A stretch of DNA of 40,000 nt. Origin: Bacillus sp. V59.32b. Lineage in GTDB: Bacteria > Bacillota > Bacilli > Bacillales > DSM-1321. Each line of letters opens with the position of its first letter. The stretch's first letter is position 1. Where the stretch lies: NCBI RefSeq assembly GCF_003429085.1, contig NZ_QVTC01000003.1:19173-59172 (forward strand). Reading direction: 5' to 3'. The notes below the pieces were generated by a model. That model had not been told where the DNA came from. It saw only the letters and a program-made list of their open reading frames with translations, and searched no databases. The translations under genes and the position numbers were made by a program. Positions 4,932 through 37,756 of this stretch are shown in pieces.

Positions 4932-4932
4932 T

Positions 4933-8353: not shown

Positions 8354-8358
8354 CACAT

Positions 8359-9096: not shown

Positions 9097-9626
9097 AAAT
9101 GATCATCTCCTTGATGGTAAATTTAACCATTCGCAAAACTTCTTACATCCTCCTGAAAGTATTAATATCTTTTTTATCAATGCTTTATAACCCAATAAAA
9201 TCTTCAGAATATTTCCAAATTATCTGCTCGAAAACTCCTCGATCATGAACGTCTTCTTCTCTAAAGTAAATGCAATCCTATTGCATTACACCCTTGAAAA
9301 TTGTATCCATTATCACTCGGTCTTCCAATTCCTCCCATACTTGGCAATGCGGTAGTATTTTTAATTTATCTTCCATAGTATTTGACGCTCCTTTCTTCTT
9401 AATCTTCCAAGGAATTAAAGATGGTTCCTGCTAGTACACAAGATAAAATGAATTATTAGAGATTTTAATCCAATAAGAAATCGAATAAGCAGCAATCAAC
9501 TTCGTCTCCAGATCGTTTTTTTTCGAAATGAAATAATCATTGTTTTCACTATATAAATATATTTTCTACATAGATTTAATTTGTGATAGGATATATTAGA
9601 ATGCTTTAAATAAGGTGGAGGTTTTT

Positions 9627-11666
9627 ATGCAAAAAAAAGTATTGGTTGTGACTTCATGTACGGGCGAAAAAGTCCATCAACCAACTAATGAGCTCCAATT
9701 AAATGATTTTAAAGACGTTAGTATGTTAAAAAAGCGCGAAGAAGAACTCGCTTCATATAAAACTACTGCTGGAGAAATGTACACCGGAAAGCAACACGTT
9801 GCTTTAATGGAGGGTGTGAAGAAATATCGAGATCATGGTGGCGATATTGATGTAGCCATTTTATCAGCTGGTTACGGCATGTTGAGAGAAAACGATGTAA
9901 TTGTTCCTTACGAAGTAACTTTTAATTCAATGAGTGGTGTTGAAATAAAATCGTGGTCTAAATATATATCTATATCCCAAAAGTTGGAGAAATGGATAAA
10001 AGATTATGATTTGATTTTTTTCCTCCTAGGTGATAAGTACTTACAAGCTATTGAATGGCCTTTGAAAACAACAGAGGGTCAAAAGTTATTTTTCTTTGCA
10101 GGTGATGCAAGTAAGCATAAAGTTCTAATAGCTCCAAATCATTATGTTATTGCTGCCCGTGAATTGGAAGCAAAAATATTTAGATCAGGCCTTATTGAAT
10201 TAAAAGGATTTCTATTCAACAAGCTTCTTAGTTATGGAATTGAAAATAATAATATGTGGGAATCTATAGCAGAGTATCCTGAACGAATTAGAGAATATTT
10301 ATTAAGTTTCTATAAGTTAGGCCAACAAATATCCATGTTTGAAGATGAAGAATTGGAGTCTAAATTATTGTCTTTTTATACAATTGCTGTCCCGTATGAA
10401 AAATTGGCAAGAAACTATGGTTCTGAATTCATGTTTTATATTCCTGAAAATGATGATCGTGTGGATCCTCGATATGATTTTATTGAAGACTATTCAGATC
10501 CACAAAGGGATAGGTTGGTAGACGATGTATATGCACATGAGTTACACCATCAACCTCAATATGATGGAATTCTAATTTCGAAGGTAAATGTAGATAAGGC
10601 GACGAAAAAGAAAACCAGTATGATTCATGAAATGGGTATACGTGAATTCTTAAGGCTTCCTGATAACTATTCAATAATGGGAGATTGTGGAGCATTTAGC
10701 TATATTGGCAAGGAGTTACCTCCATATAAAACTGAAGAAGTTCTTAATTATTATAGGGATTTGGAATTTAATTATGGAGTATCAGTAGATCATTTAATTG
10801 TTGGATCATTTGCCAAAGATGAAGCAGAAAGAATTCGCAGATATGAAATAACCTTAAACAATGCAGAAGATTTTATAACAAAATATAAACAGAATAAAGG
10901 TGAATTTCGTAGGAAGTTTACTCCAATTGGAGTAGCGCAAGGTTGGGATCCAATTTCATTCCGAAATGCAGTATCTGACTTGGTTAAAATGGGATATGAA
11001 TACGTTGCGCTAGGTGGACTTGCTAGAGAAAAATCCTATACGATAGTTGAAATTTTAAAGGCAATTGCTCCTGTGATTCCAAATAATAATTTTAGAATGC
11101 ACTTATTTGGTGTGGTACGTGACAACATGGAAGTAATGAAAACATTTCATAAACTAGGTGCTACTTCTTTTGACTCTGCATCTCCATTAAGGAGAGCGTG
11201 GTTGGGCTCGGAACATAATTATTATGGTAAGAATCAGCATTTTTCTGCAATTAGAATTCCTGAGGCAAAAGAAAATACTGGTCGAGTTAAAAAATTGATA
11301 TCAGAGCAAGGTGGAGCATTCTCTGAATATAAAGCACTCGAAATGAAAGCATTAGATTCTTTAAGAGCTTTTGACCGGGGAGATATGGATCTAGACACAA
11401 CCTTGGAAGCAATTTTAGCATATGATGAAAGACTTGGAGAAAAACGTGAAAGGCACGCTGATTTTTATCGCGAAGTATTAAAAGAAAAGCCATGGAAGCA
11501 ATGTGGTTGTAACATATGTACTGAAATTGGAATTGATGTGATGATTTTTAGAGGTAATAATCGTAATCGAAGAAGAGGTTTTCATAATACCCATGTTTTT
11601 TATGAGCAAGTTACCAACTTGAAAAAAGAAATAAAATCAGAACTTCTTGTGCCAAATTCTTACTAG
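9627..11666 (+). CDS. dpdA: DpdA/TGT-like DNA(?)-guanine transglycosylase fused to an unknown ~300-aa N-terminal domain
   Basis: The C-terminal half has the TGT/DpdA motifs GDCGAFSY (10680-10703), VSVDHL, IGVAQGW, ALGGLA, MHLFGV, SFDSASP, the Zn motif CGCNIC (11502-11519) and FRGNNRNRRRGFHN. The N-terminal domain has VVTSCTGEK...MYTGKQH...ILSAGYGML...VPYE. ATG 9627 follows the RBS AAGGTGGAGG; the track start, GTG 9615, lies inside that RBS. Confidence 0.8.
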   Translation: MQKKVLVVTSCTGEKVHQPTNELQLNDFKDVSMLKKREEELASYKTTAGEMYTGKQHVALMEGVKKYRDHGGDIDVAILSAGYGMLRENDVIVPYEVTFNSMSGVEIKSWSKYISISQKLEKWIKDYDLIFFLLGDKYLQAIEWPLKTTEGQKLFFFAGDASKHKVLIAPNHYVIAARELEAKIFRSGLIELKGFLFNKLLSYGIENNNMWESIAEYPERIREYLLSFYKLGQQISMFEDEELESKLLSFYTIAVPYEKLARNYGSEFMFYIPENDDRVDPRYDFIEDYSDPQRDRLVDDVYAHELHHQPQYDGILISKVNVDKATKKKTSMIHEMGIREFLRLPDNYSIMGDCGAFSYIGKELPPYKTEEVLNYYRDLEFNYGVSVDHLIVGSFAKDEAERIRRYEITLNNAEDFITKYKQNKGEFRRKFTPIGVAQGWDPISFRNAVSDLVKMGYEYVALGGLAREKSYTIVEILKAIAPVIPNNNFRMHLFGVVRDNMEVMKTFHKLGATSFDSASPLRRAWLGSEHNYYGKNQHFSAIRIPEAKENTGRVKKLISEQGGAFSEYKALEMKALDSLRAFDRGDMDLDTTLEAILAYDERLGEKRERHADFYREVLKEKPWKQCGCNICTEIGIDVMIFRGNNRNRRRGFHNTHVFYEQVTNLKKEIKSELLVPNSY

Positions 11667-11812: not shown

Positions 11813-12631
11813 ATGGGTAATTTAAAAATCAATAACGTCAAGAAATTAAATCGCAGAGATAAAAATCATCTCTATCTCTATATTGCTTCCTCAAATGAAA
11901 TAAAAGAATGGAAATTAAAAAATGGAGACCCTTTTTTAGGGGGAGTCGATGGAGTTCTTTATTTAACCTGTCTTGATATAATGGAGTGTTTTTGCGTTAA
12001 TTCAAACCAATTATCTATAGAAATTACAGCTCCCTTATTAAGATCTGATATTGGTATAAATATTAATAATGACTTTTTAGTGGTTATTCAAAAGCAAAAT
12101 CTTCAAGACACGGTTAAAAGTATGTTTCAAAATGATTCATTACTCAATACATGGATTGAAATAAAGGGTTCCCGAGTTAGTAAAAATTCCCTAAAAGTTA
12201 TTACAATAAACTCATTAAAAAACATTATGAGTACACTTTTTAGTAATAATAGTATCTCTGAAACAGAGGAATTTACGACTTTTCTGCGGATTTATCTACA
12301 AGAATTTATCAAGGAGAACTCTATTTATTTTCCGTATAGTGTAAAACAAATGGTAGAAATTAAAGAAAGCACTGTCGTCCATAGTGTGAATACTTGGTAT
12401 ATTTTGATTAAGTATTTTAAAGAGCAATGGGAAAACTCATATGAACAGGGTATAAAGGCTCCAATATTTTTAAAAGAAATTACATATAAAAATTGGCAAG
12501 GTAATTTCTTCGATAGATCAAGTCCCTTCTGGCTAGAGTTCAACAAAGATTCTAAACGTCCTTTTTATCCTAGTAAAAGTAATCAAGAAATAATTTATAA
12601 AGCTTGGAAAGATCTAACCGAACCTTCTTAA
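11813..12631 (+). CDS. Hypothetical protein, monocistronic, between the two DpdA paralogs
   Basis: 272 aa with RBS GAGGT upstream of the ATG, bracketed by terminators on both sides. The N-terminal ~50 aa (…IKEWKLKNGDPFLGGVDGVLYLT) faintly resemble an AbrB/SpoVT-type swapped hairpin. No family recognised. Confidence 0.55.
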   Translation: MGNLKINNVKKLNRRDKNHLYLYIASSNEIKEWKLKNGDPFLGGVDGVLYLTCLDIMECFCVNSNQLSIEITAPLLRSDIGININNDFLVVIQKQNLQDTVKSMFQNDSLLNTWIEIKGSRVSKNSLKVITINSLKNIMSTLFSNNSISETEEFTTFLRIYLQEFIKENSIYFPYSVKQMVEIKESTVVHSVNTWYILIKYFKEQWENSYEQGIKAPIFLKEITYKNWQGNFFDRSSPFWLEFNKDSKRPFYPSKSNQEIIYKAWKDLTEPS

Positions 12632-12720: not shown

Positions 12721-13620
12721 GTGTGTATTAATTTGGATTTTTATATCAGTTGGTCACACAGTGATGCAGTTTTTAGTGATTATTTTGATAGTTGTCCTAT
12801 GCTTATTTCTGCTATTCCTGATAATAAATATGCATTGAAGAAATTTAATAGAAGTCCGCAGAAAATTATAATAGATTCTGGTGCGTTTTATTATTCTAGG
12901 CAGAATGTAGCAAGAAAATTGAAAGACATTATGGATATTCAATGCTATATGATAGATGGGGCACCTAATGATGTACCAATTAAAATCGTGCATTTAGATG
13001 AACCTTTAACAGAAAAGAAAGCGCTTACAGAAAAATATAATTCAATTGAAAAAACGCTATTGAATGCATACGAGCATTTTAATTTATTTCAAATGGAAGG
13101 ATTTCCTCAAAATATTAGCATGATGGGTGTTATACAAGGGTTTGACTTTGCAAGTATTCAATTTTCTATACATGAACTAAAAAAGATGGGTTACACCTCA
13201 TTCGGTATAGGATCCTTATTAAAAAAATCAGCAAAGGATCAGATATCCATTATTAATTTTATTTCTGAAATTGTCGGATCTGAAAATCTTCATGTTTTTG
13301 GGGTTACTGGTATCCCCCAAATTAAAGAAATGGCAAAACTAAAAATCTCTTCATTTGATTCAAGTAGACCGACAATGGTAGCAGCTTATCATCAAATAAT
13401 CTATAGCAATCCTTTTAGAATTTTTTTAATTTCCGAATCCAATGTAACAAAAACGCAAAAAAGAATATCTAAACCCTTAAATTGCAACTGTCCTGTTTGT
13501 AATAATAAGCCTGAAGATATAATGAAAATTGATCATCGGAATTATACAAAACTTAGATCTATACATAATTATTATCATTTGATTGAAACAATTAAAGATA
13601 TTAAAAGAGAGGTATTATAA
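12721..13620 (+). CDS. dpdA: Second DpdA/TGT-like transglycosylase paralog (short form)
   Basis: 299 aa with IIIDSGAFYY (12871-12894), VHLDEP, MGVIQGF, FGIGSL, LHVFGV, SFDSSRP, the Zn motif CNCPVC (13483-13500) and HNYYH. The start is uncertain: GTG 12721, or TTG 12733 at better spacing from AAAGGCGG. Confidence 0.75.
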   Translation: MCINLDFYISWSHSDAVFSDYFDSCPMLISAIPDNKYALKKFNRSPQKIIIDSGAFYYSRQNVARKLKDIMDIQCYMIDGAPNDVPIKIVHLDEPLTEKKALTEKYNSIEKTLLNAYEHFNLFQMEGFPQNISMMGVIQGFDFASIQFSIHELKKMGYTSFGIGSLLKKSAKDQISIINFISEIVGSENLHVFGVTGIPQIKEMAKLKISSFDSSRPTMVAAYHQIIYSNPFRIFLISESNVTKTQKRISKPLNCNCPVCNNKPEDIMKIDHRNYTKLRSIHNYYHLIETIKDIKREVL

Positions 13621-14375
13621 TGTCATTATTTCAAATTTGTTATGGACCAGAAATCCAATCGATTTTTGAAGTAATCAATAAACAGCCCGGAATTAAATTT
13701 CAGGAGTTGGTAAAGAAATTTCAGTATGAAGAGAACGGTGATATAACTTCCTTAGTCGAAGCAGTAGGGAAATTTCTTGTAAATTTAGGATTCATTGAAA
13801 TTGATGAAAATAAAAGAATTTTCCCCTTAATAAAAAAATTTAGCAAACTTGAAACTTTAAAACGGTTGACAGAAATATCGAACAGTATAAAGGATCCTTC
13901 CGATCAAAATTATGTGTTTTCGTCGTTATACTATGAATTGTTTATACGTCATAATGAATTATATATAAAGAATTTGCATTACGAAACAAATTTACATTAT
14001 GAGAAGTGCGTCGTTAGTCATGAGAAAATCAATGCTTGGAAGAGAATAATGCAATACTTGGGTCTAGGATATAGAGTTTATGGGGGCTTTTATGCATTGC
14101 CGCATTTGGATTTAATAGTGGACATAATTCAGCTTCATCAAAATTGGGAAGGGCCATTTCAGGAATTCATTGAAAAAAATGTAGACCCAATTATACCGTG
14201 TGTTTTTAATGGGAACGCATACAATGGTGTTGTGTATGGATTAATAAATTTAAGTAGTACTGATTTAATAGAACTATCTAAAAAACAGGACCTACCATTC
14301 CATTCATATGGAGAAAGAAAAGAGTGGAACTGGATTAAAGTGGGGGGAGACGCTGATGATTCCGTGCATAACTAA
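13620..14375 (+). CDS. wHTH-like protein, paralog of the 273-aa protein at 23460
   Basis: 251 aa. The ATG overlaps the upstream stop (TAATG). It shares the motif INAWKRIMQYLGLGYRVYGGFYALP with INGWVTWANYFGLGHTMNGKFIVNP in the 273-aa protein, and has a similar N-terminal helical/wHTH-like region. Confidence 0.6.
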   Translation: MSLFQICYGPEIQSIFEVINKQPGIKFQELVKKFQYEENGDITSLVEAVGKFLVNLGFIEIDENKRIFPLIKKFSKLETLKRLTEISNSIKDPSDQNYVFSSLYYELFIRHNELYIKNLHYETNLHYEKCVVSHEKINAWKRIMQYLGLGYRVYGGFYALPHLDLIVDIIQLHQNWEGPFQEFIEKNVDPIIPCVFNGNAYNGVVYGLINLSSTDLIELSKKQDLPFHSYGERKEWNWIKVGGDADDSVHN

Positions 14376-17085
14376 AAGATCAATTAAACATCTCTATAAT
14401 ACTGCAGACGAACGTTATAATTTTTCGCATGAATTCTTTAGAAAGACTCATTTTCCTCAGTTATTAAATAGGTACTATAAAGATTCATTAATTGAAAAAG
14501 TTACTGAGGAGTCGTTATTAAATGAATTGGAAGACGATCATCCCTTCGGTAATAGAGTTTATATTATTTATGGTTCAACGGGTTCAGGGAAATCTGAATT
14601 GCTATGTTGGTTAAAAGACCAGTGGATTGTTAAAGGGAATAAGAGACCTATAATAAGGATATCTAGAAGTGAATTAAATCCCCAATTATTAATAAAAAAG
14701 TGTTATCAATCTTTAGAATTTGATCTACAAGACTTAATTATTGATGAAAACAAATGGCACCTTTTATTAAACAAACCGATAGCTATAATTACCCAATTAG
14801 TTTGGTCTGCCTTAGATGAAATTTTCGATAGAGATGAAGACATTGTTCCGACCGCTATGTTATTAAGACCTGTTATAGAAAAGAATGTTTTAGATTTTAC
14901 AAACCAGGTAAAGTCAGGGATTGTGAACTCACCTTTAGAGATCATTACAATAAAAGAATTTGAACAATTAATTGAAAATACAACTGTCCCTATTACAGTA
15001 GATTATTGGAAGTTTAGACATTCTTTATCTAAAAAGTTGGATGATTATTTATTTCAAGGAGTTGATATTCAAACAATCTTTAAAAATTTAACAGAACAAA
15101 TAAGTATTAGAGGAATAAGACCTGTTATTCTAATTGATGACCTGGTTCAATCAATGAATTTGTATGCGAGTGATATTTTAGACTTCTTTATAACATTAGA
15201 AGAAGGGAGATGGGATGTGGTAATAGGTTTAACCCCAGGGGTTTTGGATGGGAATGAGTCTGATATAGAGTTAAAAAATAGAATCAATAACCTCGATACA
15301 ATAGATGATCGAGTTAAAAAACTATGGCTTTCAGATGAATCAGGCAACTACTTTTATAGTTTAGATAAAGATAATGCAAAAGATTATTTATTAAATTATA
15401 TAAAAGCCTTAAAAGAGGCAAATGGATTTAAATGTTCACAGTCTTGTCAGCATGCTCAAAATTGCTCTAGTCTCTTAGGAAGTAAAACAAATTCTTTATT
15501 ACCACTAAATGAACCGTTGATAAATCGAATTTTTGATGGTTTACCAGCGGGAAAAGGTGTTTTACGTTATATGATAATGCACACTAGAGAAATATTATCT
15601 TTTCTTTTGGAAGGAAATAATAAAAATCCAACTAAAATTAAGAAGTACTTTTCCAGGGATGTGTATTCCGACCATGATGATGTAATTATTAAGCTTTTAG
15701 CTGAAATGTATGCAGATAGCTCACTAAGTGAATTTAAATTTTCCCTAGAGCTATTAAGGCATTTTAATAGGGAGAATGCTACTTCTTTAGTTAAAATAAA
15801 AAAATTAACTTATGATGTTCAGGATGAAAAACAAAATCAAATAAAATATAAAAAAGACAATGAGATTTTAGGACATATAAGAGATTGGGTAGAAGGTAAA
15901 AAAGTTAATAAACAATTATTAGAGCCGATCAGATTTGGTGTCGGTACTATATTAAATGAGATAACAAAAGGAACTTCGATCATGAAGGCAGATACGTCGA
16001 GAGTTATAAAATCAACATCCACTATACAAAAAACAGAAGTAATAAATAGATTAAGGTATCCAATTTCATTTGAAAAAAAGGATAACCAAATAACAATAGA
16101 AAAGAAAATTAATTTGTTGAACATAGCTGATTTCCAAAAACTAAAAATGCAAGATCGTCCTGATGCATTCGCAAAAGTTGCTAATGATTTAAATGTTTCT
16201 AAATGGACATTTGAAACAGAAAACCTTAAAAAAATTTGGATCAAAGAATTAGAAGAGAACTTAGGATATAATATGGAAAGTTTTGTTTTTTATTTTAAGA
16301 ATTTTATAAACAAAGTTAACGTAATTGCGGACTATAACTGGTCAGAAGATATAAAAAATCCTATTAAGACTGAATGGTTAGAAATAGCTGACTCTCTGTT
16401 TTTGGATTGGTTTTCCTTAAGAGATAACATAATTGATTATAATAAATTGAGGTGGGAAATGGTAGAAGACGAATCATTTGAACGCCATTTTCTTAATTTT
16501 AATCCTTCTAGATCGTTAAATAAATTTCATATAAAAAATTATCAAATGCAATCTTTTATTATTAAATTACAATTTGAAATTAAAAAATTTTTGAGTATAC
16601 TGGCACCCATTATCAAAGAAAAGATAAACGAAATTAATAAAGCTTTCACTTATTTAGCAAAAATTCCTGGCGATTTATTGGGAATCGTTCAAAAAATTAA
16701 CTTATTAAAGGAGAGTGAAATACTTTCCTTAGATACTATTCAAAAAATTGGAGAAGTTGTTAATTGGATTGAAAAAGAAGAAAATAAAGGTTATATAGTT
16801 TTTATCCAAAGTCAGCAGAAACATTCCAAAAATATCAGTAAAGTTTTATCATTAATTGAAGAAAATGATAATGAAATAGGGGAAATAAATAGTCTGCCTT
16901 TAATAAATGATTATTTAAAAGATAAGTTAAAACTTAGAAGGCAAGTTAGAAAACATCTTTTGAATTTAATTGAAAATGGAGAAACACAACTTCCAAAACA
17001 ACAGTGGAAAGGAATTATAAGAGATATTGAAGTTTTGAATCCCGAACTATTTAATCATTTAAATTTGAATCTTAAATTAAAGTAA
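14356..17085 (+). CDS. Large P-loop NTPase, paralog of the 1079-aa ATPase at 24287
   Basis: Walker A is GSTGSGKS (14572-14595) and Walker B-like is PVILIDDL. ATG 14356 follows the RBS GGGGGGAG and overlaps the upstream gene by 20 nt; the track start 14308 has no RBS. The region YIIYGSTGSGKSELLCWLKDQW..IIRISRS aligns with HVVKGDNGSGKSHLIRWIKEHY..VIFISRM in the paralog. Confidence 0.7.
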   Translation: MIPCITKRSIKHLYNTADERYNFSHEFFRKTHFPQLLNRYYKDSLIEKVTEESLLNELEDDHPFGNRVYIIYGSTGSGKSELLCWLKDQWIVKGNKRPIIRISRSELNPQLLIKKCYQSLEFDLQDLIIDENKWHLLLNKPIAIITQLVWSALDEIFDRDEDIVPTAMLLRPVIEKNVLDFTNQVKSGIVNSPLEIITIKEFEQLIENTTVPITVDYWKFRHSLSKKLDDYLFQGVDIQTIFKNLTEQISIRGIRPVILIDDLVQSMNLYASDILDFFITLEEGRWDVVIGLTPGVLDGNESDIELKNRINNLDTIDDRVKKLWLSDESGNYFYSLDKDNAKDYLLNYIKALKEANGFKCSQSCQHAQNCSSLLGSKTNSLLPLNEPLINRIFDGLPAGKGVLRYMIMHTREILSFLLEGNNKNPTKIKKYFSRDVYSDHDDVIIKLLAEMYADSSLSEFKFSLELLRHFNRENATSLVKIKKLTYDVQDEKQNQIKYKKDNEILGHIRDWVEGKKVNKQLLEPIRFGVGTILNEITKGTSIMKADTSRVIKSTSTIQKTEVINRLRYPISFEKKDNQITIEKKINLLNIADFQKLKMQDRPDAFAKVANDLNVSKWTFETENLKKIWIKELEENLGYNMESFVFYFKNFINKVNVIADYNWSEDIKNPIKTEWLEIADSLFLDWFSLRDNIIDYNKLRWEMVEDESFERHFLNFNPSRSLNKFHIKNYQMQSFIIKLQFEIKKFLSILAPIIKEKINEINKAFTYLAKIPGDLLGIVQKINLLKESEILSLDTIQKIGEVVNWIEKEENKGYIVFIQSQQKHSKNISKVLSLIEENDNEIGEINSLPLINDYLKDKLKLRRQVRKHLLNLIENGETQLPKQQWKGIIRDIEVLNPELFNHLNLNLKLK

Positions 17086-17483
17086 AATAGGATCACCATC
17101 TATTTTAAAAAAAGTTTCACTAATTCTGTTATCTTTTTCCATCTAAATATGTTAGCCCAATAAAAGATCGCTATTCACTTGGTAAGTGTTACCGGGTAGT
17201 ATTCGGTCTTTTTCTTGTCCTTTCTGTGTCTCTAAAGCATTCCCTACAGCACTTAATAAGGTGAAAATGCGAGGGATTCCGATGTTCTATGTCTGGATAA
17301 AGGGCGTCTCTTAGAGAAAACAAGTTAGAAACATATATATTCAGTGCCAAAACAAAAAATATAGAGTCATATGATGGCAGAAGCGTCCGAGTTGCAACAA
17401 AATATTTCTTATATATGATATATCTAAAAACTATTATATAATAGAAATATGTAATTATTTGTAACAAGGTGATGATCATAATT

Positions 17484-20400
17484 ATGAGTAAAATAAAAAC
17501 CGGAATGTATGTAAGGTGTAATATAGATATTGAACATCCTGAAACACCCAGAAGGTTTGCACTCGGACAAGTGAAGAGTGTTTATAACAATGAAGAAGTC
17601 TTAGTAGACTTTTATAGTTTAGAAAGACAATTTGATTATTTTTCTGTTTATCATGTTCCGAAACAACAAAGGTATCATCAAACTCAGATTGAACATGTTC
17701 ATATTTTACCTAACACAATCGTGGAATGGAATAATGATAAACAAAGCGGGAAAATTATTGAGTTTTCCCATAAAGATAAAGAAGGGTTCAATTGGTACTA
17801 CACCGAAGTTATAGTGGCTAAAATGAAGAAAATTAACATTTTTTGTGAGACACAACTAAAGGTGCCTTTTAACCGAGCTGATGCCGACCCAGTAAAGCAA
17901 CTAATAAATTATGAACTAAATCATCCCAGATGGTATTTAAAACGTGATATTGTAACTAATTCACTTCACACATTAAAAAATGCCACCTTTGGGTTTGATA
18001 CATTAGTAGGCTCACGTGTCTACTTACTAAAGCACCAAGTTGATACAATAGTTCGGGCAATATCGGAAAGGCCATGCCGTTTTATGTTAGCTGATGAAGT
18101 AGGACTCGGAAAAACGATTGAGGCCATTGTTATAATGAAGGGCTTGCAAAAACGTATCGGCGATATGAGAATCTTAATAATTACCCCAGAATCATTATTG
18201 TACCAATGGAAAAATGAATTATCCTTTAAATTCTGGAGTAATTTTCAAGTGCATGGGGAAGAATCCTCCCGCAAAAAGCATCCATTTGTGTTATTTCCAT
18301 TAGAAAAAGTCAATACTCCTATATGGGATGATTTATTGGCAGACAATTGGGATTTAGTAATTATAGATGAGACTCATCGTTTACTTTATCTCGATTATGA
18401 ATATAAAAAATTACTTCAATTAAGCCAGAAAGTCGAAAATCTTCTGTTACTAAGTGCGACTCCAATACAGTCTCGTCATAATGAATTTTTAAAATTAGTT
18501 CGTTTACTAGAACCGCATAAATATTTAAAAATATCAGAGCAACATTTTGACGCATTGCTGGAAAAACAGAATTATATTCGGAGACGCGTTTATCAAATGA
18601 TGCAAGAACTTCCGGATTATATAGAAGATGAACTGGTAGAAGATTTCATTGATAGCTTTGAAAAAGTATCAAAGAGACTTGAAGATAAAATTTTTGATAG
18701 ATTAATTGACAATATTGATCCGGAATCAGATGACCAAGGTTTGGATCAAGTTAAATTAGCCTTGGCGTATTTAGCTGAAAATTATCAAATTGAAAGAAAA
18801 ATTATTCGCCACCGGCGTAAAGAATTGGAACAACAACTACCTAAACGTCAAAAAGAAGTAATTTCTTATGAAATGCAAGGTTCAGATTTGCTTTATTATG
18901 AGTTAGATACAAATGAATCGCTGTTATCTTATTTAGATCTTATTAACCAAAAAGGTTATTTGCCAGACCAAGCAGGATCCTTCCACCGTGTCTTTTTATC
19001 CAGTATGTTTAGTTCCCCATGGGCACTTGAATCGGTGGTTTCAAAAAGACTGGAAATTCTGAAGGAAAACGAGGTATACATTGATCGTGAAATCTTTAAA
19101 CCGTTAAACATTCTTCCTGTTTCAAAAGATGAGGAAATGTACTTGAATGATTTATTGGGAATAATAGAAAGATGGAAAAAGGCTGCGGAAAAAGAATTTT
19201 TCCATATTCAGGATCTTTACGATGATCCTGACCTCATTAAAGGAAGATTAATGTATATTTTAGACTATTTGACCGAAAATACGGAAAACGAAAAGGTTGT
19301 TATTTTTTCTCAGTGGAAAGAAACAATTATCCAATTTGAACGACTCCTTACTGCTAGATTTGGTAAAGATAGTGTTAGAAGTTTTTATCAAGGAAAAAAC
19401 GAGGAAGAACTTCAGACAGCGGTAGACGATTTTCAGAGAAATATTGACTGCAGATTTATGGTTTGTGACCCACTGGGAGGGGAAGGCCGAAACTTTCAGA
19501 TGGCCGATTTTTTGGTTCATATTGATTTACCCTGGACTCCGACAGACTTGGAACAGCGTATAGGAAGGCTTGACCGCATTAATCGAGAAAAAGATGTTCT
19601 TTCTGTTATATTCATTTCAGAAGAAACAATAGAGGAAGAACTATTTAGATTATGGAATGAAGGACTACAAGTTTTTGATGAGTCTTTAAGTGGAATTGAA
19701 ATTGCTTTGTTTGAAATCCAAAATGCTATAACAGAAGCAATTACAAAGAATTTGGAAAACGGGCTTAGCAATATATTAAATGAAATAAACTTGAGTCTTC
19801 AAAAAATGAGAGAAAAGGTAGAGGAAGAACGATTCTTCGATATTGCTAGACAATTAGATCAATCAGTAGAGAAGCAATTACTACATTTAATTCATCAATT
19901 TGATGCAAATGATGGTGGTATTTTGGCTTCAACGATGATGTCTTGGTCTTCCTTCTGTGGATTGCATGGAACAGATGTGGAAAAAGGGACAGCAATTATG
20001 TATTCCCCTAAGTCTTTTAATTTTAAATCAATGAATAATTCACAATATTTTGTTCCTGATTTAGAAGAAGCCCGAAAGAGGTCTTTACGTTCTAAGGAAT
20101 TGAGAGGGACTTTTATACGAAAGAAAGCGATTGAACGAGAAGACTTGATGTTCTTTGCTCCCGGAGACTTATTATTCGATTCAATCGTAAATAATGCTTA
20201 TGCTCTTTCATCTGGAAGATCTACAGCAATAGAATTTAGAACCAATGAGGTGCACTGGGAAGGTATTGTATTCACATGGTCAATGTCATTAAATCCAAAA
20301 CCATTGATTGATATAGGGGAATCATTAGATCATCTTTATCATGCTCAAGGTTATCTCCCATTGGAGCATTTTAAAACTGTTGAGCACGTCGGAGGAGATG

Positions 20401-20795
20401 AAATTGATGAAAGGACAATCGTTTCTTTACTTTCAAATGATATTCCAGATAGGGTAATAAGGCACTTAGGAAAAAGACAAGGTGGTGTTTTAAAAAAGTT
20501 TCTTGACGACTACCCCAAAGATATTTGGCAGAATATGATTGAATCTAGTTTTGAGAACAGTCAGTTGAAAGTCCAGGAATTTTTTAAATCTGAGGTGCAA
20601 GTCCATAAAGCACGTGAGGATTTCCAGAATAAGATAAATTCATTGAAAGCTTCAAATCTATATTATGGATATGAAGACGATGCTAATGTAAGGTATTTAT
20701 CATCAATTTTTGATGCTGTACAAAAAGGAATTGAAAACCCGGTCTTTCGATTAGAATCAGTAGCATTTATCAGGTTGGTGAATACGAGTGGATAA
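17484..20795 (+). CDS. dpdE: SNF2-family helicase (DpdE-like by architecture and synteny)
   Basis: Motif I is ADEVGLGKT (18093-18116), motif II IIDETHRL, motif III LLLSATPIQ. The C-terminal helicase lobe has GGEGRNFQ and EQRIGRLDRINR. ATG 17484 lies 11 nt after AAGGTGA; the track start is GTG 17469. Confidence 0.8.
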   Translation: MSKIKTGMYVRCNIDIEHPETPRRFALGQVKSVYNNEEVLVDFYSLERQFDYFSVYHVPKQQRYHQTQIEHVHILPNTIVEWNNDKQSGKIIEFSHKDKEGFNWYYTEVIVAKMKKINIFCETQLKVPFNRADADPVKQLINYELNHPRWYLKRDIVTNSLHTLKNATFGFDTLVGSRVYLLKHQVDTIVRAISERPCRFMLADEVGLGKTIEAIVIMKGLQKRIGDMRILIITPESLLYQWKNELSFKFWSNFQVHGEESSRKKHPFVLFPLEKVNTPIWDDLLADNWDLVIIDETHRLLYLDYEYKKLLQLSQKVENLLLLSATPIQSRHNEFLKLVRLLEPHKYLKISEQHFDALLEKQNYIRRRVYQMMQELPDYIEDELVEDFIDSFEKVSKRLEDKIFDRLIDNIDPESDDQGLDQVKLALAYLAENYQIERKIIRHRRKELEQQLPKRQKEVISYEMQGSDLLYYELDTNESLLSYLDLINQKGYLPDQAGSFHRVFLSSMFSSPWALESVVSKRLEILKENEVYIDREIFKPLNILPVSKDEEMYLNDLLGIIERWKKAAEKEFFHIQDLYDDPDLIKGRLMYILDYLTENTENEKVVIFSQWKETIIQFERLLTARFGKDSVRSFYQGKNEEELQTAVDDFQRNIDCRFMVCDPLGGEGRNFQMADFLVHIDLPWTPTDLEQRIGRLDRINREKDVLSVIFISEETIEEELFRLWNEGLQVFDESLSGIEIALFEIQNAITEAITKNLENGLSNILNEINLSLQKMREKVEEERFFDIARQLDQSVEKQLLHLIHQFDANDGGILASTMMSWSSFCGLHGTDVEKGTAIMYSPKSFNFKSMNNSQYFVPDLEEARKRSLRSKELRGTFIRKKAIEREDLMFFAPGDLLFDSIVNNAYALSSGRSTAIEFRTNEVHWEGIVFTWSMSLNPKPLIDIGESLDHLYHAQGYLPLEHFKTVEHVGGDEIDERTIVSLLSNDIPDRVIRHLGKRQGGVLKKFLDDYPKDIWQNMIESSFENSQLKVQEFFKSEVQVHKAREDFQNKINSLKASNLYYGYEDDANVRYLSSIFDAVQKGIENPVFRLESVAFIRLVNTSG

Positions 20796-23376
20796 AATAT
20801 TTGATCTAACTCAGAAAGTCCTGTTGGAAGAAATCGAAGTAATCGAAGGAATTAATACTCTTGACGAAATTCTGACCGGTTCAGATATTAAAGCTCTATC
20901 CAAGACCAGTTGTGTAAAGCGTATCTTTAAATGTCTCAATGAAATAAATTCTAATTCCAACCGTGCATCCATTTTTGATTTAGCAGGTCATTTGCGCCAG
21001 TTTATTCTTATGTTTCAATCAAGGGTGAAGGTATCTTCAAAATGGCAGGAAATATTAAAAGACCTTTCAGAAACTGTTGGGCTTTACGTAGGATTAGATG
21101 GTGAGGTAGATACTGTAAATGAATTCCCTGTATCTATCCCACACATCGAAAGAGTCCAGGAAATTTATTCTCTGCCTGAAAGAAGAATTAGCAATGCGCC
21201 AATTGGGGATGGAATCTTGAATCACATGACAGGATTTACGCGCTATCGATCTGAAGCACAAAAAGTGATGGTTAAATCTTGCATGAATATGGAAGAAGGG
21301 GAAACTTTCCTGGCTGCTTTGCCAACAGGTGGTGGAAAAAGTTTAGTCTTTCTTTTGCCGTCCTTTTACGAAACCGAGGGAGGTACTCTTTTAGGTTCCT
21401 TAAGGAAAACCGTCGGTACGACCATCGTAGTTGTTCCGACAGTCTCATTGGCGATGGATCAAAAGATGGCAGCAGCTAAGCTTTTCTCTGCCGCCATTAA
21501 TGAAAAATATAAACCGCAAGCGTATTATGGAGATCTGTCAGCAGAGGGAAAGAACGTGATTTTTGATGGATTAAAAGAAGGTTCCCTCCCAATTCTGTTT
21601 ACTTCACCGGAATCCATAGTGAATGGTTCTTTATCTAATGAAATCTTAAATGCTGCGTATAAGGGTAATATTACAAGATTTGTAATTGATGAAGCGCATA
21701 TCGTCATGGATTGGGGCAGCAATTTTAGGACCGATTTTCAATTGCTGACCGTTTTTCAAAAGAGATTGTTAAAAGCGACAAAAGGGAAATTGAAAACTAT
21801 ACTTTTGTCGGCGACATTAACAGACGCTGCTACCAATTTGTTAAAGAATTTATTTTGCCAAAATGACAAATATACGGAAATACGCGGAGATGAACTCCGA
21901 TTGGAACCAACATTTTTATTAGATGAAAACAGATCAATAAAAGAGCGTGATGGTAAAATTTCAAAGTTGATTCCATATTTGCCAAGACCTATTATTCTAT
22001 ACGTTTCCAAAAAAGAAGACGCTGTATATTGGAAAGGAAAAATGAGTGAACTTGGCTATAGACGGATTAATACATTTACTGGTGATACCAAAGACTTAGA
22101 TCGGGAAAGGATTATCCGACAGTGGAATAACGATGAAATAGATATTATTGTAGCAACGTCTGCCTTTGGGATGGGTGTAGATAAACGTGATATCCGTACA
22201 GTCATCCATTGCTGTCTGCCTGAAAGCGTCAACCGTTTTTATCAGGAAGTAGGACGGGGTGGACGCGACGGCTTTGCTTCAATTAGCCTATTGAGCTACC
22301 AATATGAAGAAGATGTCAAAATACAGGATGGTTTAACCTCAAAAGCGGTGTTAACTACCGAAATGGCTTGGAAACGTTGGATTGCCATGTATGAGAAGAG
22401 AGAGGCAACAGATGTAGCCGATGAATTCTGGTTTTCTATGAACGCACAACATGTTGGACTTGAAGGGCCATCCGGCAAAAGTAATGCTTCCTGGAATGAG
22501 TCTGTTTGCCTTATGCTGGCAAGGCATGGTTTCATTGAAATTGTGGATACCTTGCTTGAAAAGGGTGAGTTTACAAGGAAGTTACGTTTAAAAATAATTA
22601 ACTTCTCGGTTATAAATAATGAGACAAACTTTAAAGCAAGCCTGGAACCGGATCGTGCAAAGGAAAGGGAGCGGGTAAACAAAGACCTCCGGCAAATGAG
22701 GAAACTAATTCGAAAAAGCGAACAGCACTGCATATCAGAATCCTTTATTGAAATCTATCCTAACGCTGTTGAGGCTTGCGGCGGATGTCCATCATGCCAT
22801 TCAGACAGGAATGACCTAACCTATTACAGGCCGGAATTAAGAATACCTTTTAATAATCAGGAAATCGAGACGGAGGCCATTCTATCAGGAAGTTTGGTAG
22901 AACTTGCGGGTGGTTTCCAGGAGGTTATTTTAAAACCTTTAAAAGATGATTGGAGCCGTGAATCACTGTTGCATATTATCACAGAATTAACGGCCTGCAA
23001 CATATTGACTCTCGTTTTACCAGAAGGAAATAATATAAATTATACTGAACTATTAAAGGCATCACCTACTGAAATAGATTGGGTTAATTATACATTCCTA
23101 ACAAGAGATGAATTAAAAAATTACCCTTTGGACTTGCTAAAAGGATCGGTTGCCATTTTTTATCAGCATGACGATTTTCTAAATGACCAATTATTCCAAT
23201 GGTCCAGAAGGTTTCTGGACGCCCATCCTTCAGGAATAATTGTCCATGTATCTACACCGAATATTTTTATCCCTTCAGAAGGAAAATCACTGGATAACTT
23301 AGTAGATTATATAGGCATTAACAAGGACGATTTCTTTGAAAGGCAAGACCAAATGTTCTCGCTTGAAATGTTTTAA
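20788..23376 (+). CDS. dpdF: RecQ-like DEAD/DEAH helicase (DpdF-like by architecture and synteny)
   Basis: PTGGGKS (21322-21342), VIDEAH (DEAH at 21688-21699), LLSATL, VATSAFGMGVDKRDIRTVIH, YQEVGRGGRDG, and a Cys cluster CGGCPSCH. The GTG start overlaps the dpdE stop (GTGGATAA). Confidence 0.8.
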   Translation: MDKIFDLTQKVLLEEIEVIEGINTLDEILTGSDIKALSKTSCVKRIFKCLNEINSNSNRASIFDLAGHLRQFILMFQSRVKVSSKWQEILKDLSETVGLYVGLDGEVDTVNEFPVSIPHIERVQEIYSLPERRISNAPIGDGILNHMTGFTRYRSEAQKVMVKSCMNMEEGETFLAALPTGGGKSLVFLLPSFYETEGGTLLGSLRKTVGTTIVVVPTVSLAMDQKMAAAKLFSAAINEKYKPQAYYGDLSAEGKNVIFDGLKEGSLPILFTSPESIVNGSLSNEILNAAYKGNITRFVIDEAHIVMDWGSNFRTDFQLLTVFQKRLLKATKGKLKTILLSATLTDAATNLLKNLFCQNDKYTEIRGDELRLEPTFLLDENRSIKERDGKISKLIPYLPRPIILYVSKKEDAVYWKGKMSELGYRRINTFTGDTKDLDRERIIRQWNNDEIDIIVATSAFGMGVDKRDIRTVIHCCLPESVNRFYQEVGRGGRDGFASISLLSYQYEEDVKIQDGLTSKAVLTTEMAWKRWIAMYEKREATDVADEFWFSMNAQHVGLEGPSGKSNASWNESVCLMLARHGFIEIVDTLLEKGEFTRKLRLKIINFSVINNETNFKASLEPDRAKERERVNKDLRQMRKLIRKSEQHCISESFIEIYPNAVEACGGCPSCHSDRNDLTYYRPELRIPFNNQEIETEAILSGSLVELAGGFQEVILKPLKDDWSRESLLHIITELTACNILTLVLPEGNNINYTELLKASPTEIDWVNYTFLTRDELKNYPLDLLKGSVAIFYQHDDFLNDQLFQWSRRFLDAHPSGIIVHVSTPNIFIPSEGKSLDNLVDYIGINKDDFFERQDQMFSLEMF

Positions 23377-23459
23377 AAAGGTGTCCTTAGAGTTCTCTCA
23401 TAAAAGGTTAGATCTAAGGATATTCCTAAGATGTTTATAAAGAGAGAGGATGGTGGAAG

Positions 23460-24281
23460 ATGCCATTTGATAACAATTTGAAAAATATGCAAACCCCTGG
23501 TCGTGTCCATGCTTTGTGCAAACTATTGGCTCATGGTTCCCAAACCCAAGACAGATTGATGGAACTACTGCAACCTAATTCTGATAGAGCACAGGTAAAA
23601 GAGGTTTATAGACTTGCACTAAACGGAGGTTTGGTCAAGTTGGGAGAAGATAAGAAGGTCCATTTGCAAGTACCTGAACAAATTGTGTTCGATCGGAAAG
23701 AATTCCAAAACTATGTTTCACAGCTCGCATTTAATAATAACGATTTTGTATTTGGCAAGTTTACAGCATGGGTCATGACAAGAGGAGAGAAGGTATTAAA
23801 CGAAACAAAAGATCAGCTTTCTGATAGTTTCTTTAATGATGTAACAAGACAGTACACTAAAAATCGCGAATTTAATGACACTAATATAAATGGATGGGTG
23901 ACTTGGGCAAATTACTTTGGATTAGGCCATACAATGAACGGCAAATTTATCGTAAACCCTGCAAATCGAATCCAAACCGAGCTCGAGAACGACAAACAAG
24001 CCTTGCCCAGTGGAGAAATGATACCTTTTAGAACCTTCATGAAATGGCTTGGAGAAAAATGTCCCGAATTGGATGGCGGCAATTTGAATAGGCCATTTAA
24101 CACTCAGTATAGCAGCCAACAACTTTCCTTTGCACTGTCTCTAGCACTCAGTACGTTACATGACATGAAAATTATTTCGTTACAAAATACAAGAGACATT
24201 GAAGATATTTGGTATCTCTCTGATATGTCGACGCATCACATACCAAATCAAGTAACTGAAATAATGGTACTGAAAGGTTGA
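23460..24281 (+). CDS. wHTH-like protein, positional equivalent of DpdG
   Basis: 273 aa with RBS GAGGATGGTGGA. It shares the W..Y(L/F)GLG motif with the 251-aa protein at 13620. It is called only by position between the RecQ-like helicase and the giant ATPase. Confidence 0.55.
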   Translation: MPFDNNLKNMQTPGRVHALCKLLAHGSQTQDRLMELLQPNSDRAQVKEVYRLALNGGLVKLGEDKKVHLQVPEQIVFDRKEFQNYVSQLAFNNNDFVFGKFTAWVMTRGEKVLNETKDQLSDSFFNDVTRQYTKNREFNDTNINGWVTWANYFGLGHTMNGKFIVNPANRIQTELENDKQALPSGEMIPFRTFMKWLGEKCPELDGGNLNRPFNTQYSSQQLSFALSLALSTLHDMKIISLQNTRDIEDIWYLSDMSTHHIPNQVTEIMVLKG

Positions 24282-24286
24282 TTATT

Positions 24287-27200
24287 ATGGATATACAAAG
24301 ATATAAAAGTAAACTTTCCGATGTATTTCAAATAAATGCGATAACTGTTGATAAAGATTATTTCATGTTAACGCATAAACCATTTAAAAGAATAAAAATG
24401 GTGAGCAAAGGATTATTTTTAAATGGGGAAAAATTTTTCCATGAAAATGAACTCTATAACACAATCATGGACAATCGCGATAAACATCAATTTCATGTTG
24501 TCAAAGGGGACAATGGTTCGGGAAAATCCCATTTAATTCGTTGGATAAAAGAGCATTACGAAACCGATGCAAAAAATGAAGCTGTCATTTTTATATCCCG
24601 GATGCAAAGTACCTTGAAAGGCGCATTGCAGCAAATTATTAATGCAGAAGTTATCCAAAATCATGAAACCTCGCATAAACTGAAAAATTTGATTGAAGCG
24701 AACAATCATTTAGATAAAGCCCACTTAAAAAATATCATTCTGGCACATTTAAACGTTGCGGTACAAGAGGACGACGATACAAGAGATATCAAACTACGCA
24801 GAAGTAAGCGATTAAACCTATATGATTTTCTTTCCAGCCATGATACTCGTGATTTTATGCTACGTGATAATGGCCCTCTTGACAGGATACAGAAAAAGCT
24901 TGCACCAAGTGTTAATAATGAAATTATGGATGAAGTAAACCCGCACTTCCTTCCTGAAGATTTCAAAATTACCTCAGCAGAATCGCAAGAATTCAAGAGG
25001 ATGAAAGATATTAGTCCAAGGGCACTGCGTTTCATTGGCAGCATACAAGAAGCTTTCAATGTAGATGATCAGGAAGAGGTTGAGGAGTTTCGAGCGGAGC
25101 TTGCTAGGTATTTGAACCAGTTCCTTGACAAGGTAGTACAAGAATGCCTTAGCCTTCGCGGCACTGATTTAAAGGAAATTTTCGTCCTTTTGCGCCAGGA
25201 GTTGAAAAAGGAAGGTAAGAATTTAACGCTATTTATCGAAGATATAACCTCCTTTACAGGAGTAGATAAGGATCTTGTAGATGTTTTAATTGCCGATCAC
25301 GAAGAAGAAAAATCGCTAGCGCTATGCCGTTTAGTTTCGCTTGTAGGTATTACCAATGGTTACTATAATACTTCTTTACCTGGCAATATTATAGACCGGA
25401 TTACCAGCCATATCGAAATCGATAATGTGGTCATGGAAAACAAGGATGAAAGCGCTGAACTGGCAGCAAGGTATATTAATGCGGTTTATCTTGAAGACGA
25501 CCAAATTCTTGAATGGAAAAATACCGGGTACCGCCTCGAAGAATTTCCTGTAGCAACAGCATTTAGGCAACATTCATGGGCAAATGTTACAGTTGATAAT
25601 GATTTGGAGTTATCCATTTTCCCATTCACAAAAGCCGCTCTGTGGAACTTTTATGTTCATTTGGAGACAAAAACTCCACGGAGCTTCTTGCAGACTGTAT
25701 TATTGCAGTACATTCAAAAATATGCTCTTTACGGGCCAAGAGGTCAATTTCCACCGAACATTGGCAAGGTACTATTAGATTTCAAACGTTTGCCAAATTG
25801 GAAGGATACCAGTTTAAATCGGGTTTTAAGCAGTAAAGTCAGTGCTGATGAAAAAGGCCGTTATGAAACTTTATTCCGTATCTGGGGAAATGGCACATTG
25901 GATGAACAAATGGTAGACGGCAGGAAAACTGTCGGCGGGTTAGAGGATGATGTATTTGAATCCTTTAAGTTAAAGCCGATTTCTGGGATCCAGGGCAGAA
26001 CCGCGCCAAAACCGGACCCCGCTGGAGCCCGTGGAGGAGACGGAATTCCTGTTTCTCCAAAACCTAATCCAGGTGGAGGAAAAAGACCAATAATAAAACC
26101 GGTACTAGACCCTCCAACAGTTGATCCGCCGGTAGTAGACCCGCTCGCAATAGATCCACCAGTTGTTGTTCCTCCATCTACTGAACCATCTAACCCGGAT
26201 TTGGAAAATGCGATAAGCGAAATTGAAAGATGGTCAAAAGGTGAACCGCTTGATAACAACTGGATGATTGGCGATATTTTAGATATTATCCGTGAATATA
26301 TCCATTGGGATTTAGAGGGTATTTCTACATTGATTGTTAAAGACTTCTTAACTAATAATTATGTATTAATAGAAGGCCAATCTAAGGCAGTAAAAGTAAA
26401 GGAAGAGAATGCTCTTATTTTTAGGCGTAATGATACGCTTCGCTATACTCTAGAAGGGCTTGCTTCCTACCGTTATGAGGGCAATAAAACTTGGGATTTC
26501 CCAAATTCCTCTATGGCACTCCTTTCCTTGCATACTTGGCTTGAAATAGTGAAGGATGATATCGTTTCATTTTTACAGAAGCCATTTGATTATAAGGGTA
26601 ATGATTGGGCTATGGAAGAATACCTAGTGTCAGCTGAATTTTATTCTACTGCCTTACTTAGCGGTTTCAAGGGTACCGAAAGATCCCCTGAAGAAATATA
26701 CTTGCAATTATTGAAAGACAAGAATAAAAATAATATAAAAAACCACAACAAAACATGGGAAGCATCAACAAATTACTTGAACCTTGAACATACAGACCTC
26801 TTTAGACGTTATTTTAATTTGCTTCAAGGTGAAACTAAAAGGGCGGGTTATTCATCCCTGACTTTCTTCTATGATGCATTTGAAATCATTGGCACAATCA
26901 AAAAAATCACAAGCAAGGATTTTGCACTGGTGTTGGATGGCATACCAAAAGGGAAATCAAATAGCTGGTATACATCTGTTAATATATTGCCTGATATTAA
27001 TCAACGGATACAATCAGCCGCTAAAGAAGAAATTAGCCAGTCAACCAACTTTGTCAATAATATTCAAATGTTAATAGGTGATGAACCTTCAAAAGATGTT
27101 ATTGAAAAAATAATAAAGTCGATGGCTGGTTTCCTTGATTATTTAAAACAAATCAAAGAGCCATTTCAACATTCACAGTTCGAAGTACTTTACAATAATG

Positions 27201-27517: not shown

Positions 27518-28160
27518 AATAGCTGAAACTCGTAAAACGTTTGAAGAGTATAATAAAGTTTATACTGATCTTCAAAATGTTAAAAAAATAAACTCCTTCA
27601 GCCAATATGCTAAACAAGAATTGAAAAAGTGCAAAGATATCCTTGAAAGTTACCGGGCCCTCAATCAAATGGACGATGATATTTTTCCAAAACGAAGCAT
27701 GGGTTACGAACTCAAACAACTTGAAGGATTATTTAATTACGACTTGGCTAAATTGAATAGAGATGAAGTATCCTCCTTTCAACGAACTTTAAAGAAATTA
27801 GATGATCACTGGAAAATGCGGTGGACAGTATATGTCCAAAATAAAAACCAGGACCTTATTGGTTTATTAGAAAGACTAAAGAACATTGTCAGCAATCCGC
27901 AAGAAATAGAGCAATTAATTATGTACTTAAAACAATTTGAAACTGTATGGCCGGTGTCATCAGCCAAATTGTCCAGGTATCATGAATATCTTGCACAAGC
28001 AAATAAAGTGGTTTCCGACATGAACGCAAGTCAGGGTGTGCAGGAGTTTATTGGAAAAGTGGCAGCCAATAATGCCACCATTGAAGATTTGAATGACGAA
28101 GTGATCAGTTGGTTGCGCGAACAGCAGTTAACGAACAAGTTATTTATTAAATTCAAGTAG
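27504..28160 (+). CDS. Small coiled-coil-like protein, positional equivalent of DpdI
   Basis: ATG 27504 follows the RBS AAAGGAG and overlaps the upstream gene by 14 nt. 218 aa, rich in K/E/L/Q. No family motif recognised. Confidence 0.55.
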   Translation: MLLNKIAETRKTFEEYNKVYTDLQNVKKINSFSQYAKQELKKCKDILESYRALNQMDDDIFPKRSMGYELKQLEGLFNYDLAKLNRDEVSSFQRTLKKLDDHWKMRWTVYVQNKNQDLIGLLERLKNIVSNPQEIEQLIMYLKQFETVWPVSSAKLSRYHEYLAQANKVVSDMNASQGVQEFIGKVAANNATIEDLNDEVISWLREQQLTNKLFIKFK

Positions 28161-28177
28161 TAAGGAGAATTCCCATC

Positions 28178-36429: not shown

Positions 36430-36432
36430 ATC

Positions 36433-37630: not shown

Positions 37631-37645
37631 ATCTCCTCTTTTTAA
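37616..37645 (+). terminator. Rho-independent terminator overlapping the queE stop
   Basis: AAGAGGGGA (37616-37624) pairs with TCTCCTCTT (37632-37640, one G-U). The loop contains the TAA and is followed by TTTT. Confidence 0.6.
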
Positions 37646-37756
37646 ATTGAAAATTTTAAATTAAGATATCCATTTTGTTTTACAAGTCGAGAATTTAAAG
37701 TTAAATTAAAATAGAACTAATGTTCTTTTGGAAAATTCAAAGAAGGTGGGGAAAAT

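What the first reader, a model, noticed from the sequence alone, without database searches (positions are those of the whole stretch)
9627..10560. Unknown ~300-aa N-terminal domain fused to a DpdA-type transglycosylase
Residues 1 to about 300 of the 679-aa protein carry a conserved-looking pattern: VVTSCTGEK ... EMYTGKQH ... ILSAGYGML ... VPYEVTF. This pattern is absent from ordinary TGT/DpdA enzymes. It reminds me of the SCxxxK / SAxYGL / PY pattern of DUF6884-type proteins, but that is a memory-level impression, not an alignment.

Canonical DpdA needs the separate ATPase DpdB, which is missing here. The fused domain is therefore a candidate functional replacement, for example in DNA handling or base activation.
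Basis: partly seen in the sequence, partly recalled or inferred. Interest (0 to 1): 0.6.

Follow-up and report, generated by a model that had tools for sequence, protein, structure and literature searches.

The report
DpdC-like domain fused to DpdA
The 'unknown' front part of this DNA guanine-swapping enzyme (DpdA) is a relative of DpdC, the enzyme that finishes the 7-deazaguanine self-mark on bacterial DNA, so one protein probably both inserts and matures the mark; this is a widespread, unstudied variant of a known defence system.

Summary
The gene (9627-11666, 679 aa) and the quoted motifs are real. The extra domain spans residues 1-~235, not 300: the DpdA barrel starts at ~263. It is not unknown. 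It matches DUF6884/YaaA (Pfam E 4e-12), PADLOC DpdC models (E 2e-10) and a DpdC profile (HHalign P 98.9%). The fusion is common (170 hits; Bacilli, cyanobacteria and several other phyla). In 80 fusion loci no separate dpdC exists, and the domain sits where dpdC sits in canonical dpdC-dpdA-dpdB. Best reading: a DpdC-DpdA fusion that inserts preQ0 and hydrates it to ADG (inferred, not assayed). Orthology is likely but unproven: trees do not reject alternatives, and DpdC's C-terminal part is missing. An active DpdB is indeed absent from this genome. However, the next gene is a DndB/DpdB-fold relic without the DGQHR motif, and 14 cyanobacterial fusion loci keep an intact DndB-family gene. So DpdB replacement is a possible second role, not the main one. 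The scan reported the same fusion in at least eight other genomes. I found no paper describing it.

The parts
9617..9621 (+). Ribosome-binding site GGAGG, 5 nt before ATG 9627
   Evidence: sequence
9627..11666 (+). Fusion gene, 679 aa: DpdC-like (DUF6884) domain + linker + DpdA transglycosylase
   Evidence: NF041059 DpdA 460 bits, cut-off 200; AF2 mean pLDDT 94, pTM 0.90
9627..10331 (+). N-terminal DpdC-like DUF6884/YaaA-fold domain, residues 1-~235 (conserved core 1-200)
   Evidence: Pfam PF21818 E 3.6e-12, PF03883 E 5e-6; PADLOC DpdC E 1.7e-10; HHalign vs DpdC P 98.9, E 3e-17; conservation profile
9657..9671 (+). CxxxK motif (C11, K15); candidate catalytic residues (inferred)
   Evidence: invariant in 104 homologues; the Cys and a Lys/Arg are shared with all 12 DpdC rows
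9780..9788 (+). YxG motif (Y52-G54)
9864..9878 (+). SAGxG motif (S80-G84)
   Evidence: LSAxxG is a DUF6884 signature
9906..9923 (+). PYxxTF motif (P94-F99), aligned to the matching DpdC motif
10332..10412 (+). Variable linker, residues ~236-262
   Evidence: mean column conservation 0.36 against 0.57-0.67 in the domains; pLDDT dips at 231-240
10413..11666 (+). DpdA TIM-barrel DNA transglycosylase: D353, D388, D516, Q438-G439, G463-G464; zinc site C626/C628/C631/H653
   Evidence: 7UI4 phmmer E 1.5e-87; Z 47.1, rmsd 1.7 A over 394 residues; reference residues in PMC10164549
11722..11747 (+). Terminator-like hairpin after the fusion gene
   Evidence: consensus match only
11813..12631 (+). DndB/DpdB-fold protein without the DGQHR motif (degenerate dpdB-like gene, in dpdB's position)
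   Evidence: PF14072 E 0.0045; 12 of 21 family members hit DndB, best 1.2e-8; Atlas TM 0.53 to a DndB cluster; HHalign P 64, E 6.5e-5 to cyanobacterial DndB
12721..17085 (+). Second TGT-like gene (12721-13620), 251-aa gene (13620-14375) and DpdH-like P-loop ATPase (14308-17085)
   Evidence: conserved beside the fusion in Bacilli, Chloroflexota and Deinococcota
17469..35395 (+). dpdE, F, G, H, (I by position only), J, K, D restriction block
35767..38287 (+). Island copy of queC, queD, queE and a YhhQ/VUT-type transporter (preQ0 supply); a second queCDE lies on contig C50

Best explanation
The protein is the one-chain writer of a Dpd (7-deazaguanine) restriction-modification island. Shown by sequence and structure: a complete DpdA barrel with its catalytic aspartates and zinc site, an N-terminal DUF6884 domain homologous to DpdC, and the dpdD-K restriction genes and preQ0 genes in the same island. 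Inferred: the barrel exchanges G for preQ0 in a DNA motif. The tethered N-domain then binds the same DNA, flips the modified base into the cleft lined by C11/K15/Y52/S80/Y95, and hydrates the nitrile to the amide (dPreQ0 to dADG), as DpdC does. C11 as nucleophile is my chemical guess by analogy with cysteine nitrile-converting enzymes. The fused domain lacks DpdC's conserved C-terminal segment, so DpdA probably supplies the DNA targeting. How exchange is powered without a DGQHR ATPase is open: candidates are the neighbouring DpdH-like ATPase, an ATP-independent DpdA, or help from the N-domain.
For: DpdC homology: PADLOC DpdC E 1.7e-10; HHalign P 98.9, E 3e-17, 224 columns. On the shared core, DpdC scores best among the dpdA-independent or canonical families: P 99.3, against 98.8 for short DUF6884, 95 for YfjM-like and 86 for YaaA. 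Position: canonical loci read dpdC-dpdA-dpdB or dpdC-dpdB-dpdA-dpdB. Complementary distribution: a DpdC HMM finds only the fused domain (or its broken copies) in 80 fusion loci, and finds stand-alone DpdC in three control loci at E 1e-68 or better. Split forms lie next to dpdA in a cyanobacterium and in haloarchaea. Trees group fused domains with DpdC (93/93; 83/50). A paper equates DUF6884 with dpdC (PMC11888242). DpdC converts preQ0-DNA to ADG-DNA independently of DpdA/B (PMC10164549).
Against: AU tests do not reject grouping the fused domain with short DUF6884 proteins (p 0.22 and 0.41), and a PADLOC PDC-M57A model scores slightly higher than DpdC models. The shared motifs are family-wide signatures. 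HMM matches to DpdC cover only ~110-125 residues, and DpdC's C-terminal motif is absent. Close stand-alone relatives occur on plasmids and chromosomes with no dpdA nearby, so the subfamily can do something outside Dpd. DpdC's catalytic residues are not mapped in any paper I could read. No activity was measured.
Confidence: 0.68

Rival explanations
1. The N-domain is a DNA-binding, base-flipping accessory that takes over DpdB's job, letting DpdA exchange guanine without ATP, with or without hydratase activity.
For: No DGQHR DndB/DpdB in this 99.95%-complete genome or in 7 of 10 non-cyanobacterial fusion genomes tested. Only 14 of 80 loci have one, against 92% of dpdA genomes in the literature. 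The DUF6884 member YfjM flips a base in an AlphaFold3 model, and the fold has a DNA-binding cleft (PMC11701544).
Against: The fusion coexists with an intact DndB-family gene in 14 cyanobacterial loci and in 5 of 5 cyanobacterial genomes. Every other context brings its own ATPase (DpdH-like, HerA). Canonical DpdC has the same fold, yet DpdB is still required. The domain has no NTPase motif.
Confidence: 0.2
2. The N-domain is a DpdC paralogue with changed chemistry: it makes a different derivative from dPreQ0, or processes or protects the abasic intermediate of transglycosylation.
For: It forms its own clade apart from canonical DpdC, with clade-specific invariant residues (Q56, H57, G188, K193, G194). 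YfjM was found among interactors of abasic and RNA-base lesions. The barrel's specificity loop reads LARE, with Ala in place of the valine that excludes larger substituents.
Against: Only queC/D/E and YhhQ-type genes recur beside the fusion among the genes I tested. The loop still fits the GGhsbb preQ0 consensus.
Confidence: 0.1
3. The N-terminal region is a linker or decayed sequence.
For: None found.
Against: As conserved as the barrel, confidently folded, above the Pfam cut-off, present in 170 homologues.
Confidence: 0.01

Closest known systems
DpdC of the Salmonella Montevideo Dpd system (DUF328/DUF6884 type)
   Same: Same fold family and motifs (CxxxK, YxG, SAGxG, PYxxTF); same position upstream of dpdA; mutually exclusive with it in 80 loci.
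   Different: Fused to DpdA; about 235 aa instead of about 318; lacks DpdC's conserved C-terminal segment; ~22% identity; separate clade; activity untested.
DpdA, PDB 7UI4 (NCBIfam NF041059)
   Same: Barrel superposes at 1.7 A over 394 residues, 39% identity; catalytic aspartates and zinc ligands kept.
   Different: Carries a 260-aa N-terminal extension; Gln for His181; specificity loop LARE for MVPL; no intact DpdB in this genome.
Cyanobacterial 'DpdA' WP_015211588 (Microcoleus/Allocoleopsis PCC 7113), listed in Fig. 3 of PMC5699537
   Same: It is a 698-aa member of this same fusion family.
   Different: Its locus holds an intact DndB gene; the review text I could read does not mention the fusion.
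DUF6884 (B. subtilis YfjM) and E. coli YaaA
   Same: Cantaloupe fold with CxxxK and LSAxxG motifs and a predicted DNA cleft (PMC11701544).
   Different: Short DUF6884 proteins lack the ~25-residue insert after CxxxK that fusion and DpdC share; YaaA lacks the cysteine.

Membership tests
DUF6884 / YaaA fold | Pfam PF21818 above gathering cut-off; CxxxK and LSAxxG motifs | tested here: met
   47 bits against cut-off 30; motifs invariant; Atlas structure TM 0.81 to a DUF6884 cluster
DUF6884 / YaaA fold | Structural match to solved YaaA (5CAJ) | tested here: inconclusive
   Whole-protein fold searches were filled by the barrel; the domain was not folded alone
DpdC | Sequence homology to DpdC | tested here: met
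DpdC | Encoded with dpdA in a dpd island, with no other dpdC present | tested here: met
DpdC | Orthology (one clade with DpdC) | tested here: inconclusive
   support 93/93 and 83/50; alternatives not rejected
DpdC | Conserved C-terminal segment (SATxALRxFR...FEEKRF consensus) | tested here: not met
   absent from the fused-domain consensus; the alignment ends before it
DpdC | Converts preQ0-DNA to ADG-DNA | not testable with these tools
   needs LC-MS or an enzyme assay
DpdA | NF041059 above cut-off; catalytic Asp residues, GG loop and zinc site | tested here: met
   460 bits against 200
DpdB (for the N-domain) | ParB/DndB fold with DGQ(H/Q)R NTPase motif | tested here: not met
   N-domain hits DUF6884/YaaA only and has no such motif
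DpdB (for ORF 11813-12631) | DndB-family fold | tested here: inconclusive
   weak but concordant; no direct profile match to proteobacterial DpdB
DpdB (for ORF 11813-12631) | DGQ(H/Q)R motif | tested here: not met
   absent from the window protein and from the family alignment
Dpd system | dpdA with dpdD-K and access to preQ0 | tested here: met
   dpdD, E, F, G, H, J, K matched; dpdI by position only; queCDE present

The most novel reading that the evidence does not exclude
The fusion is a self-sufficient DNA deazaguanine writer: the DUF6884 domain presents the target base so that DpdA needs no ATPase, and then matures preQ0 to ADG or another derivative. This would explain why most of the clade has lost or inactivated DpdB and why the gene moves between dpdD-K and HerA contexts.
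Probability: 0.2. Interest if true: 0.6.

Novelty: new variant of a known kind. Interest (0 to 1): 0.3.

Why it matters
The fusion marks a large Dpd clade (Bacilli, cyanobacteria, Chloroflexota, Deinococcota and others) that surveys requiring dpdA+dpdB, or counting separate dpdC genes, would miss or score as 'lacking dpdC'. It points to candidate catalytic residues for DpdC chemistry. Because many carriers have no active DpdB, it offers a direct test of why bacterial DpdA needs ATP at all, which the DpdA structure paper calls an enigma. A single-chain DNA base-exchange enzyme would also be a convenient labelling tool. The system itself is known, so this is a useful variant, not a new kind.

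Tried and rejected
Linker or decay: rejected. Assembly artefact: rejected by the 170 homologues. Start at GTG 9615: rejected, since the RBS overlaps it. Fold searches with the whole model returned only TGT barrels and did not test the N-domain. The PDB fold search for ORF 11813 gave nothing above Z 5.1. HHalign of that family against five proteobacterial DpdB gave no match. Co-folding the fusion with ORF 11813 gave no verdict, which is no evidence either way. No sigma-70-like promoter was found upstream of the fusion. Thiaville 2016 and Yuan 2018 could not be read, so a mention of DpdC-DpdA fusions there is not excluded. I recall Meiothermus (Calidithermus) chliarophilus, a fusion carrier (L037), being among the strains analysed by LC-MS in 2016, but could not verify this. 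The BRC-system paper describes a different TGT context and reports no DpdC. Neighbours of stand-alone plasmid homologues are not TGT- or DndB-like. Phage genomes gave only one partial hit to the domain.

Full report
Observation. The ORF runs 9627-11666 on the + strand (679 aa). A GGAGG site lies 5 nt before ATG 9627. All four quoted motifs are present. A search with residues 1-270 found 170 proteins at E<=1e-3, nearly all 670-720 aa and carrying both PF21818 and PF01702. In 104 aligned homologues C11, K15, Y52, G54, S80, A81, G84, P94, Y95 and F99 are invariant. Residues 1-110 are as conserved as the barrel (0.66 against 0.64-0.67), and 201-262 are variable. The DpdA part aligns to 7UI4 from residue ~264 and superposes from 266 at 1.7 A over 394 residues. 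So the extra domain is ~235 aa plus a linker, not 300 aa. The AF2 model is confident throughout (pLDDT 94, pTM 0.90).

Identity of the domain. Pfam gives DUF6884 (47 bits, cut-off 30) and, below cut-off, YaaA. PADLOC gives four DpdC models (best E 1.7e-10, residues 8-128) and PDC-M57A (E 1.6e-12). The ESM Atlas agrees on DUF6884 by features and by structure (TM 0.81). I fetched canonical dpd loci; their gene upstream of dpdA or dpdB is DpdC by PADLOC. A 34-sequence DpdC alignment matched the fused domain at P 98.9, E 3e-17 over 224 columns, with CxxxK, YxG, SAGxG, PYxxTF and the later W and Y positions in register. DpdC's conserved C-terminal segment is missing from the fusion. The Pfam 2025 paper describes DUF6884 as a YaaA-like fold with CxxxK and LSAxxG motifs and a DNA cleft (PMC11701544). 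The GATOR-GC paper names DUF6884 as the domain of dpdC (PMC11888242).

DpdC or another DUF6884? On the shared core, the fused domain scores P 99.3 with DpdC, 98.8 with short DUF6884, 95 with YfjM-like proteins and 86 with YaaA. It shares with DpdC a ~25-residue insert that the short forms lack. Trees put fused domains and DpdC on one side of a branch (93/93; 83/50 after removing four long branches), but AU tests do not reject a grouping with short DUF6884 (p 0.22, 0.41). Phylogeny leans to DpdC without proving it.

Context is the stronger argument. In 80 fusion loci from GTDB genomes a DpdC HMM hits only the fused domain or its broken copies, while it finds stand-alone DpdC in three control loci. 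The domain occupies dpdC's place in dpdC-dpdA-dpdB. Split versions lie beside dpdA in a cyanobacterium and in haloarchaea. Against this, close stand-alone relatives also occur without dpdA. These counts are over related genomes and are not independent events.

The DpdB question. The next gene (11813-12631) belongs to a Bacilli family in which 12 of 21 members hit DndB (best E 1.2e-8). Its model matches a DndB cluster (TM 0.53), and its profile matches the C-terminal half of cyanobacterial DndB weakly (P 64). It lacks the DGQHR motif. I read it as a catalytically degenerate DpdB-like protein in dpdB's position; this is moderately supported. Across the 80 loci, 14 (all cyanobacterial) carry an intact DGQHR gene, 14 carry the degenerate form, and 8-11 carry a different gene pair that includes a HerA ATPase. 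Genome-wide, 3 of 10 non-cyanobacterial and 5 of 5 cyanobacterial carriers have a DndB-family gene above cut-off. The clade is therefore depleted in DpdB compared with the published 92%, but the fused domain is kept whether or not DpdB is present. That fits a DpdC role better than a DpdB substitute. Dispensability of DpdB in some clusters has been suggested before (PMC12839542).

The rest of the island. DpdE, F, G, H, J, K and D match PADLOC or NCBIfam. An island copy of queC, queD, queE and a YhhQ-type transporter follows, in addition to a second queCDE elsewhere. The barrel keeps D353, D388 and D516 (D95, D130, D256 in Salmonella) and the zinc ligands. Its loop GG-LARE fits the GGhsbb preQ0 consensus, though with Ala for Val.

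Mechanism. Shown: two intact domains, DpdC homology, Dpd context and preQ0 supply genes. From established work: DpdA inserts preQ0 and DpdC converts preQ0-DNA to ADG-DNA as a separate step (PMC10164549). Inferred: the fusion does both on one DNA, with DpdA providing the targeting that DpdC's own C-terminal segment may otherwise give, and C11 as the likely nucleophile. Unknown: the energy requirement. I put DpdC activity at about 0.68, a DpdB-bypass role at about 0.2, and altered chemistry at about 0.1.

Novelty. The Dpd system, DpdA and DpdC are known, and these fusions are already annotated as 'DpdA'. One (WP_015211588) is listed in a 2016 review figure. I found no paper that describes the fusion, but two primary papers were unavailable. 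The scan has reported the same fusion in at least eight other genomes; I had recorded this reading before seeing those notes, and they are not independent evidence. Verdict: real, a new variant of a known kind, interest 0.3.

Noticed in passing
window 11813-12631: Family of DndB/DpdB-fold proteins without the DGQHR motif, directly behind the fusion in Bacilli (14 of 80 loci); invariant SxxSxK motif. It could be a dead-ATPase partner or a regulator.
   Followed up: partly
L032:12035-12874 and about 20 other cyanobacterial loci: A conserved ~275-aa gene behind the fusion is a remote, truncated TGT/DpdA-barrel homologue (HHalign P 94) with no Pfam TGT hit, often followed by a convergent dndB.
   Followed up: partly
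L014, L073, L076, L078-L080: The fusion is followed by a ~400-aa gene (NurA-like by motif only, no Pfam hit) and a HerA ATPase, with no dpdD-K match within 10 kb: possibly a different effector module using the same writer.
   Followed up: partly
L097:6995-7675, L099:6938-7609, L140:2345-2998, L141:2486-3127: Stand-alone ~220-aa DpdC-like genes on plasmids (dozens of Enterobacter plasmids) with no dpdA nearby; role unknown.
   Followed up: partly
window 12721-17085: The second TGT + 251-aa protein + DpdH-like ATPase module travels with the fusion in Bacilli, Chloroflexota and Deinococcota, and a similar order occurs in haloarchaea (L091); a candidate energy source in place of DpdB.
   Followed up: partly
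L054:7017-11998: Two divergently oriented, broken copies of the fusion gene in one cyanobacterial MAG; may be an assembly or sequencing artefact.
   Followed up: no
L082, L083, L086, L087, L089, L090: Alphaproteobacterial plasmid loci carry two dpdB copies flanking dpdA (dpdC-dpdB-dpdA-dpdB).
   Followed up: no
window 4554-7554: Small protein, Ogg-like glycosylase, PfkB-NDT fusion and QueC paralogue, separated from the fusion by IS remnants (about 7950-9100).
   Followed up: no
P0004, P0010, P0011, P0022, P0116, L094: Some homologues are 810-920 aa, so they carry further domains; not examined.
   Followed up: no
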